Position numbers and translations under genes: made by a program
Shown: positions 25,700-51,639 of the stretch, in pieces
Layout of the letters: each line of letters starts with the position of its first letter
How positions within the stretch are numbered: position 1 is the stretch's first letter
Notes under the pieces: model-generated
Seen by the model: the letters and a program-made list of their open reading frames with translations, nothing else
Databases searched by the model: none
What the model was told of the DNA's origin: nothing
DNA from: a virus
Lineage: Duplodnaviria > Caudoviricetes
Length of the DNA: 64,000 nucleotides
Strand: one strand, 5' to 3'
Virus record (IMG/VR): IMGVR_UViG_3300012984_000010

Positions 25700-27706
<2,007 letters not shown>

Positions 27707-31349: not shown

Positions 31350-32762
31350 TTAGTCGACGCCTTTCAAGTTACACACAGGGTACAGCCGTTTGTGAACGGT
31401 AGCTATGTCTGCCTGCTCTAAGACAGCCACAACCTCGTCCAAATCTTTGTAAACCTCGCCGCACTCATCCAAAGGTGTGTGCTTGTGATTGCCGACGATT
31501 CCTTCGATCGTTACACCGTTGAAGGTTCGCTTCACCGTCTTCATCTCATGATCGATGCGCTCTTGCTTGTGCTCAAGCTTTCGCTTCGCCTCTCCTCGGG
31601 CCATCTTCCGGCCAGAGCCGTGGTTGACCGAACAAGCGGACTTGTGAGCGCCAGCATTTGGAAAAAGGATAACCGCCCCAGTCATCATGCTGCCAGGAAT
31701 CAGACAAGGGTGTCCAGTCGTTTCCCAAGACGTTCCAACCAGGTCGGGATGGCCTGCTGGAAAAGCACGGGTCGCCCCTTTGCGATGGACGTAACCTCGC
31801 TTGGTCGTACCGTCCGGCAAGACCAAGGTTTCCTCTTGAACGAGGTTGTGACTGATCTCGTAGTAGACCTCCGAGTCGGCCGCGAAAACCTCTTGCAGAG
31901 CCTCCTGGACGCCCTGAACAATCAAGTGTCGATTGGCGATAGCGTAGTTGGCCGCAGAGTTGTGGTACGCCCAATACTCCTTGCCTAGAGGCTCATCGAG
32001 TCGAAGCCAGGAGTCTTCACGACGGTTGGACGGAAGTCCTCGGACCTTCGCCCCCTCGTAGAAGAAATGGTTGGCAGTCTGCCACCCGTACCCACGGGAG
32101 CCACAGTGAATCATCACGTAGACTTCCCCAGAATCCCGATCAACCTGGACCTCAATGAAGTGGTTGCCCCCTCCAACACTACCCAGCTGGGGAGATGCTT
32201 TCTCGTAGGCCCTCTCGATCTTGTTCAGATCGATGTCCTCTGGAATCTCGATGTACTGACGTTCGCAAAGATCCGACCGGATCCCCAGCGCCTTGGCACC
32301 GTAACGAAGGATCTCTTCAGTCTTCTTGGCCCCAAACTTGGTCGAAGCGCCCTGACCCTTGCCCATGGCGACCCGCTTCTCAATCTCACGAATCAACCGT
32401 TCTCGCTGATACCAGCTCTTCAGGGAACTGGCCTGCAGGTCGACCTTCATGTAGACCACCCCACACGAAATGTCGTACCCAGAACCAGCCTGGATGATTG
32501 TGTTGTCGGTCACCACCGCGCAACCGACGGGGATTCCGTAACCGAAATGACAGTCTGGGAGGGCATACACACCCGTCACACCCTCATAGGACGCTGCCAC
32601 TCGAAGCTGATCCCACAAGCCTTCCTCAGAGTCCTGGTAGAGGCTCTCAGACAAGAAGGCGTTGGCTTCCACCAACATACCAGAAACCTTTGGTAGAACG
32701 TATTGACCTTCAGCGACCTTGATAGCGGCGTACTTGAGAGACATGAGTGCCTTTACGGCCAT
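31350..32762 (-). CDS. rtcB: RtcB RNA ligase
   Basis: LPDCH.GYG.PVG, GYDISCG, GGGNHFIE, HCGSRG, SHN, HRKGAT, HGSGR. Confidence 0.95.
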   Translation of the reverse strand: MAVKALMSLKYAAIKVAEGQYVLPKVSGMLVEANAFLSESLYQDSEEGLWDQLRVAASYEGVTGVYALPDCHFGYGIPVGCAVVTDNTIIQAGSGYDISCGVVYMKVDLQASSLKSWYQRERLIREIEKRVAMGKGQGASTKFGAKKTEEILRYGAKALGIRSDLCERQYIEIPEDIDLNKIERAYEKASPQLGSVGGGNHFIEVQVDRDSGEVYVMIHCGSRGYGWQTANHFFYEGAKVRGLPSNRREDSWLRLDEPLGKEYWAYHNSAANYAIANRHLIVQGVQEALQEVFAADSEVYYEISHNLVQEETLVLPDGTTKRGYVHRKGATRAFPAGHPDLVGTSWETTGHPCLIPGSMMTGAVILFPNAGAHKSACSVNHGSGRKMARGEAKRKLEHKQERIDHEMKTVKRTFNGVTIEGIVGNHKHTPLDECGEVYKDLDEVVAVLEQADIATVHKRLYPVCNLKGVD

Positions 32763-37064: not shown

Positions 37065-37239
37065 GGAAAGATTGCCGCTAAAGGTCTCATCTGGAGTCGG
37101 AGTAGGGCCCGTCTCTCAAACCTTACCGCAACCATAGAGCTACCTAGGTTCACGCCACCGCTTTCCGTCGGGGACGTGATAGCAGGGCAGAAGGTACCTT
37201 CTGCCTCGTGACTTCATCGAGAGTTCTGAAGTCACTTAG

Positions 37240-37701
37240 TGTAGGTGCGCGGAGTTGAACCGCGGTCCTCGATTTCTACAGAGAGATCTTGTTCATGTGC
37301 GTAGCCTACTAAGCATTCCAACTAGTGGACCCTAAGGAGCCGTAGGCTTCTACCTCAGGGCTTTGACGGAATCTCGTCCGTCAACCAGCCATTCTACAAT
37401 CTCACCACCCAGTGGTTAGGCAATCCTGGTAGGCCAGCCTTATCTCGAATGTCTCGTATATCCAGGCCGTAGCTTAGGACTCGTTGACATGGGAGACTTC
37501 GTTTTGGTTTCACTCCTCGGGTACCAAGACAATCTACCGAGGTAATGGCTACGTGCTCCCGTCAAGGGAGCGGCTACCCTTTCAGGCAGCAGCAGCGAGT
37601 GCGTTGTCGTTCGCAGTTATAACGGCCTGTTTTTAATGGGACAGACTCCCATTGCACAATCGATCTACTCCTTCGTCACCAAGTCGAAACCCGTCACCCA
37701 C
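37240..37701 (-). ncRNA. ssrA: tmRNA, tag peptide (A)ANDNALAAAA*
   Basis: 5' GTGGGTGACGGGTTTCGAC; 3' CGCGG-TTCAACT-CCGCG CACCTAC A; G3.U70 pair; resume context ATAACT GCG; tag ORF 37614-37582. Confidence 0.95.
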
Positions 37702-46814: not shown

Positions 46815-46942
46815 TGGCGCCGCTTCCAGGAGTCGAACCTGGCGAAGCTTGTAAGCTCTACTTTGGAACCCCTTTCAGGGTCGAGATAGAGAGCGGGGGA
46901 TTGGTTTCCTTAACAGGGAAATTGGACCCACGTCCAAGCGGC
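46815..46942 (-). ncRNA. tRNA-mimic RNA A (Asn GTT-like arm, ~60-nt structured variable domain)
   Basis: GCCGCTT/AAGCGGC acceptor + G + CCA, GGAC/GTCC D-like arm, TTTCC-CTGTTAA-GGAAA, T arm CCAGG-TTCGACT-CCTGG. Confidence 0.7.
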
Positions 46943-47091
46943 ATATTCAGTTACAATCGAGTGCGTCAACCAGTTTTGCTGTTTTTCTTGATAGGAAAAT
47001 GTCCTGCCACTAGACGATATTCCCCGAAGGGAGTAACGGGAATCGAACCCGTGCATTGCGTGTATGGTTGATGCTGGTGACTGTAACCTAG

Positions 47092-47220
47092 TGGGGGATC
47101 TGGGAATCGAACCCAGGCTTGTATGACCTGCCTAGTGTCCCATTGCTGGGACGAGGAGCAGAGCGGTGTTTTTTCCAAAACCAAAATTTGGATGAGGGAA
47201 CCTACCCTCTGTGATCCCCC
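47092..47220 (-). ncRNA. tRNA-mimic RNA B (paralogue of A)
   Basis: GGGGGAT/ATCCCCC acceptor, GAGGG/CCCTC, TCCAAA/TTTGGA, expanded variable domain, T arm CTGGG-TTCGATT-CCCAG. Confidence 0.68.
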
Positions 47221-47277: not shown

Positions 47278-47853
47278 TCAGACGGCGAACACTCCCTGTG
47301 GGTTGATTTGGTAACCCGTCTGCTTCCCATTGCTGAGAAACAGTCGTGCCGAGTGGGCCAAGAAGCTGGCCGTGATGCTGATGAAGGGAAGGTGTTCTCC
47401 ATCTTCACACGTGGCCGCCCCACCAGCCCCCTCATCATCGATTTCGAAGCCGGCGTCCCAAACGACTCGGCCGAAGCCGCCATTGGCCGCCAGGGCCCCA
47501 TGCAGGCATGGAGTTTTGGTCTTGCGAGCGAAGGCTTGCACGATCCGCCTCGCCTGACCGTTGTCCAGGCAATCGATGATCAGGTCCGATCGGCCCAGCA
47601 ACTGAGTATCGTTTTCCGATGTCAGCTTGTGGGGGATCGTCTCAATCTTGGTGCCAAAGAGGAAATTCATCGTCTGTTGGATCGATTGGGTCTTACTCTT
47701 GCCCACATGCGTCTTCGAGTGGAACTGCGAACTGACGTTCTTTTGCTCCACCCGATCGTAGTCGATGATGCGAAGCGTCGCCTCGACGTTTCGAAGCAAC
47801 ATGACAACGTGGGAACCCAGGGCTCCCACACCCACGATGGTGACGATCTTCAT
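47278..47853 (-). CDS. ThiF/E1-like ubiquitin-activating (adenylation) enzyme
   Basis: IVGVGALGSH, IIDYDRVEQKN...Q, GK.K, DLIIDCLDN, single Cys in TCEDG. Confidence 0.9.
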   Translation of the reverse strand: MKIVTIVGVGALGSHVVMLLRNVEATLRIIDYDRVEQKNVSSQFHSKTHVGKSKTQSIQQTMNFLFGTKIETIPHKLTSENDTQLLGRSDLIIDCLDNGQARRIVQAFARKTKTPCLHGALAANGGFGRVVWDAGFEIDDEGAGGAATCEDGEHLPFISITASFLAHSARLFLSNGKQTGYQINPQGVFAV

Positions 47854-47879
47854 GTTGTCTCTATACGGTTTTAGTGCGG

Positions 47880-48080
47880 TCAGGTTAAGGGTGTTTGAGC
47901 ACAAGCGTAGTACTGTTCTTCAGCTTCTCTCAACTTAACCTTGAGCCATCGGTCTTTACGGATCCATGTCAGATCCTGGGAAATCTCTCCCCTGGATTCA
48001 TGAAAAGACACCTGACGACGGAGACGTGCAATGCGTTGATCAAGCAACACTAATGCACGCTCCTGTTCATCAAACGTCAA
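47880..48080 (-). CDS. Small helical protein
   Basis: 66 aa ORF between the Ubl and E1 genes. Confidence 0.4.
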   Translation of the reverse strand: MTFDEQERALVLLDQRIARLRRQVSFHESRGEISQDLTWIRKDRWLKVKLREAEEQYYACAQTPLT

Positions 48081-48081
48081 T

Positions 48082-48339
48082 TCAGGCTCCGAACGGAACC
48101 TTTGGACGCAGCATGAGACGGTTGTACGGGATGTCGTCAGTGGCCGGATAGCGGTCCACTACGAAATCGGTGAAGTTGGCGGTCGGATCAGCCGTGATAC
48201 CTGGGATGCCAGAATGCACTGCCTCAGTGGCCCACGTCTGAATGGACGCAAGACCTGCGTCATAGTTGACCGGATCCGGCAACTCGCCCAGCTGGGCATT
48301 GTACGAGATGATCAGTTTCGCTTGGTTAGTTTCCATCAT
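48082..48339 (-). CDS. Putative ubiquitin-like (beta-grasp) protein ending ..LRPKVPFGA
   Basis: 85 aa; beta-beta-alpha-beta-beta-like pattern; near-terminal Gly; between the JAB and E1 genes. Confidence 0.65.
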   Translation of the reverse strand: MMETNQAKLIISYNAQLGELPDPVNYDAGLASIQTWATEAVHSGIPGITADPTANFTDFVVDRYPATDDIPYNRLMLRPKVPFGA

Positions 48340-48351
48340 AATCTCCGTTAT

Positions 48352-48780
48352 TTAGAGTCCTTGCTGACTCTCGATGGAGACAGCAATCAAGTTTGAAAGT
48401 TCGCGTAGCTTGATGAGCCAATCGGGAATCTCCCAATCTTCCTCACCATCTTCGAATTGACCGCCATGAGCGTAGTCGTACAAGCCTGGGCCTTTCCAGG
48501 TAAAGAACGCCACATGGTCTGATGAGGTGATGGGCCACACCAATCGGCGACCCAACCCTCTCTCAACGGCCGAAAAAGTAGTCAGATCTTCGTGAGAAGG
48601 GGCGACTGGTCCTGATCCAGGATGACTGTGGGCAAAACCATATAGGTTTTGATGGTTGTTCAGCAACACCTCCCACAAGTCTCTGCTGTCAGGCAGATAA
48701 CCAACCGACCGTCCAGGAGGTAGGTGCCAGTAAATAACACTCTCATCCTTCGCCAACACCACTCCTGTTTCAATCGACAT
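48352..48780 (-). CDS. JAB/MPN+ metallopeptidase (deubiquitinase-like)
   Basis: N-terminal E (SIETG), HSHP......PSHED motif. Confidence 0.88.
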   Translation of the reverse strand: MSIETGVVLAKDESVIYWHLPPGRSVGYLPDSRDLWEVLLNNHQNLYGFAHSHPGSGPVAPSHEDLTTFSAVERGLGRRLVWPITSSDHVAFFTWKGPGLYDYAHGGQFEDGEEDWEIPDWLIKLRELSNLIAVSIESQQGL

Positions 48781-49729
48781 GTCTAAAAACCACCAGTTTC
48801 CTTTCACGCTGTGCTTCCCGAATTACACCAGGGAGAGTCTCCAGCGTGAGCCAAGTATCTCCTTTGGTGCCTTCTTCAAAGGCTTCGTCATCGTAATGGG
48901 CCGTCAAACAGATACCGGCGTCAATGATCTGCAGTGTATGTTGGTGGCACACACATTCAAAACGCTGACCATCTAGTCTGAATCGAATCACCATCTCGTT
49001 CCGGTGAGGTGCTTGACGAGTGTCAAGAAGCTGGGCGCCGCCTACCGACAGGGCTGCCCGAGCGGCCTGTTGGAAGTCTACTCGTGCCATCGCCCTACGG
49101 CCGGCACTATCGCCAAGTTGCTCAACAAGACGGCGGCGGTTTTCCTCGCGCTGCCGTGCCTCTTCAGCCTCCTGTCTGACACGTTCGGCTTCTACCCGCC
49201 TTCTTTCCGCTTCAACCCTCTGCAGGGTCTCCATCCGGAAAGCGGCATCTAGGGCCGGTGTGACGCCAAGAATGTGGTCCAAGGAGTCTTTCTCATCCAG
49301 GAAGGCATCAAGAACCTGTTGTTCAGGTCCCAGCGGCATTTCCTGGTTCATGAAAATCAGTGGTCCGTCATCAAAGACTCGGCCCACTGCAATCCGTGAA
49401 AATCGATCGACACCTGCTTCGATCAAGAACACTTCTGGGTGTTGTGCCGCGATATCCCGTAGGTTGATCGCCCTGACCAGATTGTCCGCAACGAATCTAT
49501 TTCCCACAAGATAACCGCATTCCTTGTGGAGCAGCATCTCAGGGTCTGGGTCAGACTCAGACCTGAGGGTCAATTTCTGACCCTTAGCGTTGAAAACATA
49601 CCAACCATGTTCCTGGGGAGTCTTGCCTTCGAGGCGGTATTCAGTGTAATCCGCGCCCAAAAGGGTGCGGCCACCTGTCCAAGGGAATACCTTGGATTGT
49701 TCTACCTCAAGCAAGTCTCTCCAGGACAT
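48770..49729 (-). CDS. Protein with a candidate E2/UBC-like C-terminal domain
   Basis: IIDAGICL (cf. E2 G.ICL catalytic Cys) followed by W.TLETLPGVIREA; central coiled coil. Confidence 0.5.
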   Translation of the reverse strand: MSWRDLLEVEQSKVFPWTGGRTLLGADYTEYRLEGKTPQEHGWYVFNAKGQKLTLRSESDPDPEMLLHKECGYLVGNRFVADNLVRAINLRDIAAQHPEVFLIEAGVDRFSRIAVGRVFDDGPLIFMNQEMPLGPEQQVLDAFLDEKDSLDHILGVTPALDAAFRMETLQRVEAERRRVEAERVRQEAEEARQREENRRRLVEQLGDSAGRRAMARVDFQQAARAALSVGGAQLLDTRQAPHRNEMVIRFRLDGQRFECVCHQHTLQIIDAGICLTAHYDDEAFEEGTKGDTWLTLETLPGVIREAQRERKLVVFRHVD

Positions 49730-49782
49730 GATACTATCTAACGGTCACCTGGAGGAGAGGTTTAGTCTCCTCCAGGCTCTTT

Positions 49783-51639
49783 TCAGGCTGCCCAAGCAGG
49801 CTTCTGTAGCAGGTCGGTCGCCAAGATGGTGTCCACAAGGGACAGACGAGGCTTGACCTGCGCCCTGGTTGCTGCGGCCGTTACCGGCGTAGCAGCGATC
49901 AGGTTACGAAGCACGCGAGGCACAGCGTACGGGTCGGTGAACGTCTTCTCATCGATCTCGAAGCACGGGATATTCAAACGAACAGCCGTTTCCTTGACCG
50001 CAGTACCTTGACCGTATTGACGGGAAGGAGTGGGGATGAGACCGAATGCGACCGGATTGAGGTCAGATTCCTGAACAGCTCGGCTGAATTGGGGGGCACC
50101 CTCATCACCAACGAAGATGAATAGGACATCCCTACCTGCAACAGGCCTGTACTTCTTGAGAGCAAGTACACCAGCACCGTAATCCGTACCACCACCTGCC
50201 TTGATACCTGAGAAGGCGTTGGTGACACCTGCTGCTGAAGCGTGAGGGATTCTTACTTCACGTCCCGCTGTGTTGAACACCGAAACGTGAAGATTATCCA
50301 GCGGGAAAGCTGGAACCATCTGAGAGATATATCGCTTAGCCTTCTCGATCGCCTCATCCATCGAACCAGAGATGTCGACAATGACGTAGACTTCCAGGTC
50401 CTTGGCCACTTCCTCGACAGCCTTTTGGACTGCCGTATCCGCCGCCTCCTGCAAGGCTTCCTTGACTTCCTTGGACTTGACCCGCAAAGCGACGTTAGCC
50501 GCCCGCTGGTCTTCCGCCTTCCTGAGGGCCGCCTGCCAACGCCCCTGAATGTCAGGAACCTTGAGCAAACCGTGCGATTCAAGGGTCTCGCTGTAGATGA
50601 TTAGGTCCTTGTCGGAAAGGGATCCCGATTCGATCGAGGCCGCCAATACAGCTCGGGTGAGACCAATCTGATCTGGCAACATACCGACGATTCGCTTGAA
50701 ATCGGGCTTTTGGGCCACGATCCGTTCGCAAATCTGTTCCTCAGTGAGACCTGCCCACGACTCAGCTGCCTTGACGGCCTTACCGATGGCGATCGTACGG
50801 TGACCGTCCTTCGCCTGGTCCTGCTTCCAACGAAGCAATTGGAAGAACTTCTCCGTTGTCGGCTTGTACCCGATCGCTCGTGCCAAACGAATGAGCGAGG
50901 TCCGGAAACCCTTCTTGATCAGACCCTTGAGCAGTTGCTGGTTGACCTCACGGTAACGCAACCACTTCTCGATCACTCGGGGGAGACGACCCAAGAAGGC
51001 GTTGCGCTGGCTCTGGCCGAAACCCAACTCACGGTTGACGGCCGCGACCTCGTCCAACTCCAAGAAATCCAGAAGGCGCAAGATCATCTTGACGTCCAGG
51101 AACTTCTTCCCGTCGCAAAGTACCATCGCCTCACCGATGTCTCGGAAGTCCTCATCGTAGAACGCCACCTTACCAGCATCCAAGACCGGATCGCCCTTAC
51201 GGGTCTGAACCAACATGAATGCCGCCAAAGCTACCTTCAAGTCACGGTGATCTTCACCGTAGGCGTAGCTAGCCCAACGAGCTGCAAACTCGTTGTCGAG
51301 CCGCCATACTTCGGCGATCTGGCGGTACATCCACTCAGCCACCTCAGGGAATAGGCCTGGCTTCATGTAGCGACCGACAATCGTACGACCGTCCAACACC
51401 TTACCGTCGGCACTCAAGGTGCCAAGACGAATCAGGTTCGTCTTCTTGCCCGCCTTTTCCTTGCGGTAGACGACCTTCTGGCCGGCCTCTTCCTTGTAGG
51501 TAACTGGAGACCACTTCACCTTGGTGACGGAAGTAGGGTCCGGCTGGACGATTCCTGGCCTATTGTGTACAGCATGATCGGAATAGGCCAAAAGCGTGTT
51601 GATGATGCGCTCTGCAGGGCCCAGGTTTTCATTTGCCAT
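49783..51639 (-). CDS. Helical (TROVE/Ro60-like) domain plus C-terminal vWA protein
   Basis: About 400 aa helical/basic region, then MIDAS VDISGSM, GGTD, FVGDEG. Confidence 0.75.
   Translation of the reverse strand: MANENLGPAERIINTLLAYSDHAVHNRPGIVQPDPTSVTKVKWSPVTYKEEAGQKVVYRKEKAGKKTNLIRLGTLSADGKVLDGRTIVGRYMKPGLFPEVAEWMYRQIAEVWRLDNEFAARWASYAYGEDHRDLKVALAAFMLVQTRKGDPVLDAGKVAFYDEDFRDIGEAMVLCDGKKFLDVKMILRLLDFLELDEVAAVNRELGFGQSQRNAFLGRLPRVIEKWLRYREVNQQLLKGLIKKGFRTSLIRLARAIGYKPTTEKFFQLLRWKQDQAKDGHRTIAIGKAVKAAESWAGLTEEQICERIVAQKPDFKRIVGMLPDQIGLTRAVLAASIESGSLSDKDLIIYSETLESHGLLKVPDIQGRWQAALRKAEDQRAANVALRVKSKEVKEALQEAADTAVQKAVEEVAKDLEVYVIVDISGSMDEAIEKAKRYISQMVPAFPLDNLHVSVFNTAGREVRIPHASAAGVTNAFSGIKAGGGTDYGAGVLALKKYRPVAGRDVLFIFVGDEGAPQFSRAVQESDLNPVAFGLIPTPSRQYGQGTAVKETAVRLNIPCFEIDEKTFTDPYAVPRVLRNLIAATPVTAAATRAQVKPRLSLVDTILATDLLQKPAWAA

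What the first reader, a model, noticed from the sequence alone, without database searches (positions are those of the whole stretch)
47278..51639. Phage-encoded ubiquitin-like conjugation operon (vWA/TROVE-like, E2-like, JAB, Ubl, small ORF, E1)
Seen: six co-oriented, tightly spaced genes. They include a clear ThiF/E1 adenylation domain (GVGALG, DYDRVEQKN, DCLDN, one Cys in TCEDG), a clear JAB/MPN+ peptidase (E..HSHP..PSHED), and an 85-aa protein ending LRPKVPFGA. A fourth protein has IIDAGICL...W.TLETL, which echoes the E2 active-site G.ICL...W pattern. Known: E1+E2+Ubl+JAB cassettes are the core of bacterial ubiquitination systems, e.g. CBASS Cap2/Cap3 and ISG15-like/Bil anti-phage systems. 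Inference: here the full cascade is on the phage side, next to a TROVE-like vWA protein. It could modify host proteins or the vWA protein, or decoy/reverse host Ubl-based defence. The Ala after the final Gly would be trimmed by the JAB enzyme or conjugated directly. The E2 and Ubl assignments are the least certain parts.
Basis: partly seen in the sequence, partly recalled or inferred. Interest (0 to 1): 0.92.

Follow-up and report, generated by a model that had tools for sequence, protein, structure and literature searches.

The report
Ubiquitin-like module wired to Ro60-like RNP
A huge soil phage carries a conserved set of five genes plus small tRNA-shaped RNAs. The set joins a ubiquitin-like protein, its activating enzyme and its trimming protease to a Ro60-like RNA-binding protein. 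I found no published description of this link between protein tagging and RNA surveillance.

Summary
The genes are real and conserved. Every related viral locus examined (63 seeded on the 319-aa protein and 56 on the Ubl, largely the same contigs) holds vWA, the 319-aa protein, JAB, Ubl and E1 in the same order. E1 (ThiF fold, invariant loop Cys) and JAB (invariant E, HxH, S, D) are confirmed.

The 85-aa protein models as a beta-grasp. It ends in an invariant RPKxPFG followed by 0 to 61 variable residues. The five loci without JAB all stop exactly at that Gly.

The vWA protein is a divergent Ro60 (TROVE plus MIDAS-vWA) relative. The supposed E2 is not supported: it is a new protein with tandem OB-like barrels, a long helix and a Cys-bearing domain. 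The 66-aa ORF is not conserved.

- tRNA-like, YrlA-type RNAs flank the module in 43 of 50 loci.
- The module also sits in myxobacterial-type chromosomes.

Most likely this is an E2-less (or cryptic-E2) Ubl system acting on a Ro60/Y-RNA-like particle. The target is unknown. This scan has met the same module before on other DNA, and its follow-up agents reached similar readings.

The parts
49783..51639 (-). Ro60-like protein (618 aa): divergent TROVE-like N-terminal region (about residues 100-400) plus a C-terminal vWA domain with a complete MIDAS site
   Evidence: Pfam VWA_2. MIDAS residues D422, S424 and S426 are invariant and T485 and D512 nearly so. hhalign against canonical TROVE-vWA proteins gives probability 97.4%, E 1.3e-11 over 357 columns. 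The N-terminal part alone gives P 4e-4 against 0.61 for a reversed control. There is a weak profile hit to phage phiLo Ro60, PDB 9KOP/9L5Y, E 0.015. The Pfam TROVE model itself does not hit.
48770..49729 (-). New 319-aa partner protein ('p2'): tandem OB/cold-shock-like barrels (1-145), a long Arg/Glu-rich helix (158-206), and an alpha/beta C-terminal domain with conserved Cys259 and Cys274
   Evidence: About 1100 homologues and no Pfam family. Model pLDDT 84. The N-terminal domain aligns weakly but repeatedly to the N-terminal cold-shock domains of RNase II/R. No E2 match anywhere.
48352..48807 (-). JAB/MPN+ metallopeptidase (151 aa as listed; probable start at 48780), the Ubl tail-trimming enzyme
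   Evidence: Prok-JAB E 2.7e-5. E13, H60, H62, S71 and D74 are kept in at least 98% of 59 sequences. All five loci without this gene have a Ubl that stops exactly at the Gly.
48082..48339 (-). Ubiquitin-like protein (85 aa), mature end at Gly84, with a one-residue tail (Ala85)
47880..48080 (-). 66-aa ORF in the Ubl-E1 spacer; not part of the conserved module
   Evidence: No tblastn match in any of more than 90 related loci. The Ubl-E1 spacer varies from 0 to about 4 kb between loci.
47278..47853 (-).
   Evidence: ThiF 87.2 bits. Closest solved structures are MoeB, ThiF and UBA5. GxGxxG, D31, K54, C95, D97, R102 and Cys149 are invariant, and D94 and N98 nearly so, in 49 sequences; Cys149 is Cys166 of the listed ORF. 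Family length is 189-199 aa.
47092..47220 (-). tRNA-like RNA B: acceptor stem, D arm, anticodon-like arm, about 60-nt extra arm with CTCG, a hairpin and a TACAAGC motif, then a T arm
   Evidence: Fold energy -53.9 kcal/mol, z -4.4. The family occurs within 1 kb of the module ends in 43 of 50 distinct loci. The extra-arm hairpin is kept by at least 30 different stem sequences.
46945..47090 (-). Probable circularly permuted copy of the same RNA, in YrlA-like order: T arm, acceptor stem closed by a TTCG loop, then D arm and anticodon-like arm (approximate ends)
   Evidence: Read from the sequence and flagged as permuted by script. The same layout in the chromosomal locus L085 gives a partial Rfam YrlA match of 27.4 bits, E 0.001. 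Rfam does not recognise the window's own copy.
46815..46942 (-). tRNA-like RNA A: 7-bp acceptor stem, GUU anticodon-like loop, about 60-nt extra arm, T arm, encoded CCA
   Evidence: Fold energy -45 kcal/mol, z -2.2. Aligned with 57 family members.

Best explanation
This is a conserved module of five genes plus RNA. It joins a Ro60-like RNA-binding particle to a minimal ubiquitin-like activation system. The parts are a divergent TROVE+vWA protein, a new OB-fold/Cys protein ('p2'), tRNA-like Y-RNA-type RNAs, a Ubl, a JAB peptidase and a small E1.

Proposed mechanism:
1. JAB trims the Ubl precursor just after the invariant Gly84. This is inferred from comparative evidence.
2. The ThiF-type E1 adenylates that Gly and may hold it on the invariant loop Cys149 (Cys166 of the listed ORF). 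This is inferred from family membership.
3. The Ubl is then attached to lysines of proteins in or at the particle. Transfer is either direct, as in E2-less systems such as SAMP/UbaA and TtuB/TtuC, or through Cys274 of p2. This step is hypothesis.
4. The Ro60-like ring and the OB domains of p2 bind the tRNA-like RNAs and other RNAs. The Ubl would switch or assemble an RNA-surveillance or tRNA-protection particle during infection. This is inferred from context.

The module is shared by huge phages, where it sits in their tRNA islands, and by myxobacterial-type chromosomes.
For: - Obligate synteny of the five genes in every viral locus examined, 63 seeded on p2 and 56 on the Ubl.
- The Ubl models as a beta-grasp. 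Its invariant RPKxPFG is followed by tails of 0 to 61 residues.
- All 5 loci without JAB have tail-less Ubls, against 14 of 81 with JAB. A hand-calculated Fisher test gives p about 3e-4, not corrected for relatedness.
- The JAB catalytic residues are invariant.
- The E1 ATP-site residues and Cys149 are invariant, and its closest solved relatives are MoeB, ThiF and UBA5.
- The vWA protein is collinear with canonical Ro60 orthologues and has an intact MIDAS site.
- tRNA-like RNAs lie within 1 kb of the module ends in 43 of 50 loci, 35 of them just after the E1.
- A chromosomal locus has two permuted copies with partial Rfam YrlA matches.
- The p2 N-terminal domain resembles the RNA-binding cold-shock domains of RNase II/R.
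- The window also encodes RtcB, a tmRNA and 31 tRNAs.
- Known background: Y RNAs lie next to Ro60 genes on the same strand in bacteria and phages (PMC4201824), and a phage Ro60 binds adjacent Y-like RNAs and host PNPase (PMC12135203).
Against: - No conjugate, target or adenylate has been shown, so everything after activation is inference.
- The TROVE assignment rests on profile-profile comparison. The Pfam TROVE model finds nothing in five phage and five bacterial genomes that carry the module, and hhalign probability for the N-terminal part alone is only 35%.
- The end is FG rather than the GG of SAMP, TtuB and Urm1.
- The similarity of the p2 OB domains to RNase II/R is weak (Foldseek E about 0.02-0.05), so RNA binding by p2 is a guess.
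- A sulfur-carrier role is not excluded.
Confidence: 0.5

Rival explanations
1. One reading: a full E1-E2 cascade. The C-terminal domain of the 319-aa protein would be a true, very divergent UBC-fold E2 with Cys274 as its active site. The phage would use the cascade to tag host proteins or to counter host Ubl-based defences such as Bil or CBASS.
For: In the model the C-terminal domain has two helices, a four-strand meander, a loop bearing the conserved Cys274 in a G-x-C-L motif, then helices. This is loosely the E2 order of elements. The gene is always present with the E1 and the Ubl. E2s of non-canonical E1s, such as Atg3, Atg10 and UFC1, are very divergent (my own knowledge).
Confidence: 0.17
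2. Sulfur-carrier system. The E1 converts the Ubl C-terminal Gly to a thiocarboxylate, as with ThiS, MoaD, TtuB, Urm1 and SAMP2. The sulfur is used to thiolate the phage's tRNAs or the tRNA-like RNAs. JAB only matures the carrier.
For: The closest solved and curated relatives of the E1 are ThiF and MoeB. The module sits in tRNA islands and next to tRNA-like RNAs. All known Ubls with a role in tRNA thiolation use such small E1s, and JAB peptidases mature or recycle sulfur carriers such as QbsE/QbsD and CysO/Mec (my own knowledge). Two or three conserved Cys in the p2 C-terminal domain could relay sulfur.
Against: The conserved set holds no rhodanese, cysteine desulfurase or PP-loop tRNA thiolase. 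The end is Phe-Gly rather than the Gly-Gly that is near-universal in sulfur carriers. Some tails are 50 to 61 residues long, which is more typical of protein modifiers. The obligate partners are two large proteins with no recognisable enzyme domain.
Confidence: 0.15
3. Conflict system. The module is a defence or counter-defence device. The tRNA-like RNAs act as decoys or sensors for anticodon nucleases or other attacks on tRNA. The vWA protein and p2 sense the damage, and the Ubl system triggers or restrains a response. This would be analogous to the vWA-based ternary conflict systems that include Ubl conjugation.
For: vWA proteins coupled to JAB, E1 and Ubl-E2 components occur in conflict systems of multicellular bacteria, including myxobacteria (PMC7159879). 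The module is patchy and shared between phages and bacteria. The window has RtcB and a tmRNA nearby, which suggests an RNA-damage setting.
Against: No effector domain (nuclease, protease, pore or NADase) lies in the conserved set. PADLOC models match only the E1 domain, plus faint JAB hits. There is no MoxR, FtsH, RING or recognisable E2 as in the described ternary systems. The chromosomal neighbours are ordinary metabolic genes, not defence islands.
Confidence: 0.1

Closest known systems
Bacterial and phage Ro60 (Rsr) with Y RNAs: Rsr-YrlA/YrlB, the Deinococcus Rsr-Y RNA-PNPase particle, and Thermus phage phiLo Ro60 with Yrl1/Yrl2 (PMC4201824, PMC12135203)
   Same: A protein with a TROVE-type N-terminal region followed by a MIDAS vWA domain. 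Small RNAs with a tRNA-like module (T arm, acceptor-like stem, D arm) are encoded next to it on the same strand. It occurs in phages, and RtcB lies in the same genome region.
   Different: The protein is too divergent for the Pfam TROVE model. The RNAs carry a different conserved extra arm (CTCG, hairpin, TACAAGC) and occur in both normal and permuted tRNA order. The gene is always followed by p2, JAB, Ubl and E1, which no described Ro60 locus has.
E2-less prokaryotic Ubl systems: archaeal SAMP1-3/UbaA/HvJAMM1 and Thermus TtuB/TtuC with a JAMM peptidase
   Same: A small MoeB/ThiF-type E1 without a separate Cys or UFD domain, a beta-grasp protein activated at a C-terminal Gly, a JAMM/JAB peptidase, no recognisable E2 or E3, and a link to tRNA biology.
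   Different: The Ubl ends in Phe-Gly plus a variable tail rather than Gly-Gly. No sulfur-transfer partner is linked. The E1 is shorter (about 190 aa, without the Zn-binding CxxC pairs). It is hard-wired to a Ro60-like protein, p2 and tRNA-like RNAs.
Bacterial antiphage ubiquitination-like systems: CBASS Cap2/Cap3, BilABCD and Bub (PMC10097602)
   Same: E1-type adenylation of a C-terminal Gly or Ala, a JAB-type or other peptidase that matures or removes the modifier, and operon organisation.
   Different: Those systems have a recognisable E2 domain, often fused to the E1, and sit with defence effectors. Here PADLOC models match only the E1 part, and no E2, CD-NTase or effector is present.
Atg8/LC3 and UFM1 pathways of eukaryotes (an analogy only, from my own knowledge)
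   Same: The modifier ends in Phe-Gly or Val-Gly followed by a short tail that a dedicated protease removes. It is activated by a non-canonical E1 whose catalytic Cys lies in the adenylation domain; UBA5 is among the closest solved relatives.
   Different: No sequence relationship of the Ubl. The protease is of a different class (JAB rather than a Cys protease). No Atg3- or UFC1-type E2 was detected.

Membership tests
ThiF/MoeB/E1 adenylation superfamily | Rossmann-type adenylation domain recognised by the family profile | tested here: met
   Pfam ThiF 87.2 bits against a cut-off of 28.1. Matches to MoeB 1JW9 at 6e-8, to ThiF and to UBA5.
ThiF/MoeB/E1 adenylation superfamily | ATP-site residues: GxGxxG, the acidic and basic residues, and the DxxDN Asp | tested here: met
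   G8, G10, G13, D31, K54, D97 and R102 are invariant, and D94 and N98 nearly so, in 49 sequences.
Canonical eukaryote-type E1 (UBA1-like) | Separate catalytic-Cys domain and a ubiquitin-fold domain that recruits an E2 | tested here: not met
   The protein is only about 190 aa across the family. The only candidate is the invariant Cys149 in the loop after the adenylation core.
JAB/MPN+ (JAMM) metallopeptidases | E ... HxH ... S..D metal-binding and catalytic motif | tested here: met
   E13, H60, H62, S71 and D74 are kept in at least 98% of 59 sequences. The spacing from the second His to the Ser is one residue longer than in Rpn11.
JAB/MPN+ (JAMM) metallopeptidases | Score above Pfam's curated cut-off | tested here: inconclusive
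   Prok-JAB scores 24.4 bits against a cut-off of 25, E 2.7e-5.
Ubiquitin-like beta-grasp modifiers | Beta-grasp fold | tested here: met
   [not shown]
Ubiquitin-like beta-grasp modifiers | C-terminal Gly exposed by processing of a variable tail | tested here: met
   The Gly is invariant and tails run from 0 to 61 residues. Loci without JAB have no tail. This is comparative evidence only.
Ubiquitin-like beta-grasp modifiers | Covalent attachment to targets | not testable with these tools
   Needs biochemistry or mass spectrometry.
E2 / UBC-fold conjugating enzymes (for the 319-aa protein) | Match to a UBC or prokaryotic E2 profile | tested here: not met
   No UQ_con or Prok-E2 family at E up to 5 in 55 members. 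No PDB sequence hit. hhalign against Prok-E2_B domains gives P 0.22, with a low-power control.
E2 / UBC-fold conjugating enzymes (for the 319-aa protein) | UBC fold | tested here: inconclusive
   No E2 appears among the listed matches in five structure searches.
E2 / UBC-fold conjugating enzymes (for the 319-aa protein) | Conserved catalytic Cys after strand 4, preceded by an HPN-type motif | tested here: inconclusive
   Cys274 is conserved and lies four residues after the fourth strand. There is no HPN motif.
Ro60 / Rsr (TROVE + vWA) | TROVE domain recognised by the Pfam model | tested here: not met
   No TROVE hit in 39 family members. No hit at E up to 10 in six-frame searches of 5 phage and 5 bacterial genomes that carry the module.
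Ro60 / Rsr (TROVE + vWA) | Collinear homology to canonical TROVE-vWA proteins | tested here: met
   hhalign probability 97.4%, E 1.3e-11, 357 columns spanning both parts. The N-terminal part alone gives P 4e-4 against 0.61 for the reversed control. Language-model features rank TROVE and DUF2828 clusters first, at 0.82-0.85, a lead only.
Ro60 / Rsr (TROVE + vWA) | vWA domain with a MIDAS site | tested here: met
   D422-x-S424-x-S426 is invariant, and T485 and D512 nearly so. vWA hits in the PDB.
Ro60 / Rsr (TROVE + vWA) | Y-RNA-type RNAs encoded next to the gene on the same strand | tested here: met
   tRNA-like RNAs lie within 1 kb of the module ends in 43 of 50 loci. Partial Rfam YrlA matches at L085, 27.4 and 20.5 bits, are below the gathering score of 69. 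Binding was not tested.
PRTRC system | PRTRC ThiF equivalog score, with ParB and PRTRC proteins A-F | tested here: not met
   PRTRC_ThiF scores 48.3 bits against a cut-off of 144.75. No other PRTRC model hits.

The most novel reading that the evidence does not exclude
The tRNA-like RNA may be a working part of the tagging chemistry rather than a bystander. The Ro60-like ring and p2 would hold the RNA as a guide or carrier, so that the E1-activated Ubl is delivered to whatever the particle has captured. In the non-permuted forms the Ubl might even be esterified to the RNA's free CCA end, much as an aminoacyl-tRNA synthetase charges a tRNA. That would be RNA-directed ubiquitin-like tagging with no protein E2. 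The permuted copies have a closed acceptor stem, which argues against the ester version as a general rule.
Probability: 0.08. Interest if true: 0.95.

Novelty: new variant of a known kind. Interest (0 to 1): 0.8.

Why it matters
The role of the Ro60 vWA/MIDAS domain is still described as unclear (PMC12135203), and the purpose of the tRNA-like half of bacterial Y RNAs is not settled. Here evolution has locked a Ro60-like protein and tRNA-like RNAs to a ubiquitin-like protein, its activating enzyme and its protease. This holds in over a thousand metagenomic sequences, in phages of 400-600 kb and in myxobacterial-type genomes. It offers a compact system that could be expressed in the laboratory to ask what a Ubl does at an RNA-surveillance particle. 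It would also add a prokaryotic Ubl pathway with no recognisable E2. Finally, it suggests that huge phages manage their own tRNA pool with more than tRNA genes, RtcB and tmRNA.

Tried and rejected
- Complex prediction of E1, mature Ubl and p2 residues 200-319: score 0.00, no verdict and no controls run. It says nothing either way.
- Searches for an E2 fold with the whole p2 model: Foldseek PDB, VIA-align wide, AFDB clusters, Swiss-Prot and Atlas list no E2.
- Pfam scan of 55 p2 members gave only coiled-coil noise.
- PDB profile searches with p2 and with the Ubl gave nothing.
- hhalign of the p2 C-terminal domain against Cap2-type E2 domains gave P 0.22. The positive control was also weak (P 0.012), so the test has little power.
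- The Pfam TROVE model found nothing in genomes that carry the module.
- Rfam found no Y RNA in the window.
- The JAB has no PDB sequence relative at E up to 1.
- PADLOC and PRTRC membership was rejected.
- The 66-aa ORF was rejected as a module part.
- Sequencing runs: four soil metagenomes hold half or more of the stretch, and two more hold a small share that I did not lay. No RNA holder is listed, so expression was not tested and read laying was not run.
- Apparent Ubl-E1 fusion in L005: the junction contains masked bases, so it is unverified.
- Literature searches found no description of this module. The library lacks most subscription journals.
- No whole genome is held for the window.

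Full report
**What is there.** Pfam recognises a vWA domain in the 618-aa protein, a ThiF domain in the last gene (87.2 bits) and, just under cut-off, a prokaryotic JAB domain. The 319-aa, 85-aa and 66-aa proteins match nothing in Pfam, NCBIfam, PHROGs or PADLOC.

The window is phage DNA:
- It carries UvsX-like recombinase, clamp loader, Dda-like helicase, NAD ligase, ribonucleotide reductase, GroEL and RtcB genes.
- It has 31 tRNA genes and a tmRNA.
- Its own contig is about 476 kb.
- Relatives sit on IMG/VR contigs of 400-620 kb, some judged complete.
- Only one GenBank phage record, Virus Rctr197k, has the genes.

**Conservation.** A scan seeded on the 319-aa protein ('p2') gave 63 viral loci. 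In essentially all of them vWA, p2, JAB, Ubl and E1 follow in the same order and orientation. The few gaps are at locus ends or beyond the flank. A scan seeded on the Ubl gave 56 loci, mostly on the same contigs; all 8 new loci carry all five genes. The 66-aa ORF has no relative anywhere, and the spacers between genes hold variable inserts, so the module has five protein genes. p2 has about 1100 database relatives and the vWA protein about 1500.

**The Ubl.** The 85-aa protein models with pLDDT 92.9 as strand-strand-helix-strand-strand. A Foldseek search, a second look at its matches, and an independent alignment to 48,161 PDB chains return almost only beta-grasp domains. These include PB1, NLE1 and WDR12 UBLs, Fubi, ISG15, FAT10, parkin UBL and MoaD. 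Z never exceeds 4.8, so the fold class is supported but no close relative exists.

The stronger evidence is comparative. The family ends in an invariant RPKxPFG. After the Gly come 0 residues (9 sequences), 1 residue (23), 2-14 residues (16) or 50-61 residues (4) of unrelated sequence. Five loci have no JAB gene and no room for one between p2 and the Ubl. In all five the Ubl stops exactly at the Gly, against 14 of 81 loci that have JAB. A hand-calculated Fisher test gives p about 3e-4, not corrected for relatedness or duplicate loci. This is what one expects if JAB is the tail-trimming peptidase.

**JAB and E1.** E13, H60, H62, S71 and D74 of the JAB are kept in at least 98% of 59 sequences. 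The E1 family is 189-199 aa long, so the window's gene most likely starts at the ATG at 47853. GxGxxG, D31, K54, C95, D97 and R102 are invariant, and D94 and N98 nearly so. So is Cys149 in a T-C-E-x-G motif about 55 residues after the DCxDN Asp. That is where ThiF Cys184 and MoeB Cys187 lie, by my own knowledge of those proteins. The closest solved relatives are MoeB, ThiF and UBA5. There is no separate Cys domain, ubiquitin-fold domain or zinc site.

**The supposed E2.** The p2 model (pLDDT 84) has three parts: two beta-barrels (1-145), a 50-residue Arg/Glu-rich helix, and an alpha/beta domain (208-319). That last domain has two helices, a four-strand meander, a loop with Cys274, then helices. 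Cys259 and Cys274 are conserved throughout the family.

The N-terminal half aligns weakly but repeatedly to the N-terminal cold-shock domains of RNase II and RNase R, to exosome S1 subunits and to the Mpa inter-domain.

Nothing links the C-terminal domain to E2s:
- No Pfam E2 family at E up to 5 in 55 members.
- No PDB sequence hit.
- No E2 among the matches in five structure searches.
- No HPN motif.
- hhalign P 0.22 against Cap2-type E2 domains, a low-power test.
- AFDB holds only three unnamed relatives.

The E2 reading is therefore unproven. A cryptic carrier role for Cys274 stays possible.

**The vWA protein.** Its MIDAS residues are conserved. The Pfam TROVE model does not see it. However, a profile of 39 family members aligns collinearly with six canonical TROVE-vWA proteins of the same bacterial phylum: hhalign probability 97.4%, E 1.3e-11, 357 columns. 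The N-terminal 405 residues alone give P 4e-4 in the same register, against 0.61 for a reversed control. The family profile also weakly hits the solved Ro60 of Thermus phage phiLo (9KOP/9L5Y, E 0.015; PMC12135203). Language-model features rank TROVE clusters first for residues 1-400. I read it as a divergent Ro60 relative, with about 80% confidence.

**The RNAs.** I tested this.
- The 490-nt spacer after the E1 holds two roughly 130-nt RNAs. Each has a 7-bp acceptor stem, a D arm, an anticodon-like arm, a canonical T arm and a 60-nt extra arm. Between them lies a permuted copy.
- The extra arm has a conserved CTCG, a hairpin kept by at least 30 different stem sequences, and a TACA(A/C)GC word just before the T arm.
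- Across loci, 142 such elements were counted: 85 in normal order and 21 permuted-like.
- In 43 of 50 distinct loci one lies within 1 kb of the module ends. In 35 it is directly after the E1.

**Also in bacteria.** The module is not phage-only. Sixteen bacterial MAG contigs carry it, mostly Myxococcota. In an 11.5-Mb contig and a Sandaracinaceae contig it is a compact operon among ordinary cellular genes, at 69-71% G+C with no tRNA array. Even there, T-arm-bearing RNAs flank it on the same strand in 8 of 9 loci. At L085 two tandem copies are circularly permuted (T arm, closed acceptor stem, D arm). They give partial Rfam YrlA matches of 27.4 bits (E 0.001) and 20.5 bits, below the gathering score. 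Three others match the tRNA model with a large insert. Y RNAs with a tRNA-like module, encoded beside Ro60 on the same strand, are the known pattern in bacteria and phages (PMC4201824). Five bacterial genomes with the module have no canonical TROVE gene, while 6 of 201 sampled genomes of the phylum do.

**Reading.**
- Shown by comparison: a fixed set of Ro60-like protein, p2, JAB, Ubl, E1 and tRNA-like RNAs; a Ubl matured at Gly84; catalytically intact JAB and E1.
- Inferred: adenylation and perhaps a Cys149 thioester, then attachment of the Ubl to proteins of or at the RNA particle. Transfer would be direct, as in SAMP/UbaA or TtuB/TtuC, or through p2 Cys274.
- Against a sulfur-carrier role: the Phe-Gly end, the long tails and the absence of any sulfur-transfer enzyme in the set. 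It is not excluded.
- Against a pure anti-host or decoy role: the chromosomal copies.

**Literature.** I found no paper describing this module. The jumbo-phage survey of Iyer et al. does not mention it. The vWA ternary systems of Kaur et al. have different components.

**Earlier scan notes.** Earlier follow-up agents of this scan met the same module on other DNA and reached similar readings. One of those reports was later marked as partly fallen, without saying which part. I count none of them as independent evidence.

Noticed in passing
window 37237-37701 (-): Phage-encoded tmRNA: Rfam RF00023, 72.8 bits against a gathering score of 47.
   Followed up: no
window 31350-32762 (-): RtcB-type RNA ligase (PHROG 'tRNA splicing ligase', 1.4e-69). 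In Salmonella, rtcB shares an operon with rsr and the Y RNAs, so its presence about 17 kb from the Ro60-like gene fits an RNA-repair theme.
   Followed up: partly
window 37900-63546 (-): 31 tRNA genes, all on the minus strand, interspersed with small ORFs; the Ubl module sits inside this island. Most related phage loci also have 7 to 41 tRNAs within 8 kb of the module.
   Followed up: partly
L071, L072, L074, L075, L077: Five loci have lost the JAB gene. In each, the Ubl gene follows p2 directly and ends exactly at the conserved Gly. By Ubl sequence they represent at least two lineages.
   Followed up: yes
L001, L013, L035, L052 (Ubl genes): Four Ubls carry tails of 50 to 61 residues after the Gly, unrelated to one another. 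One has a Lys-rich stretch and Cys pairs. They would need JAB cleavage to become active.
   Followed up: no
L005:7543-8445: The Ubl reading frame runs on into the E1 (about 300 aa), which could be a natural Ubl-E1 fusion. The junction contains masked bases, so it cannot be trusted.
   Followed up: partly
L085:14100-14430 and L080:10346-10535: Chromosomal copies of the module are followed by tandem tRNA-like RNAs. At L085 they are circularly permuted, with the acceptor stem closed by a 3-nt loop and the RNA ends lying in the extra arm.
   Followed up: partly
L144:705-3653: In the Sandaracinaceae contig, a MiaB-type radical-SAM tRNA methylthiotransferase and a second VWA_CoxE protein lie 4-7 kb upstream of the module. 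This may be coincidence.
   Followed up: no
window 25700-27325 (-): Phage-encoded GroEL-type chaperonin (PHROG 5725, 2.2e-140).
   Followed up: no
[not shown]
   Followed up: no
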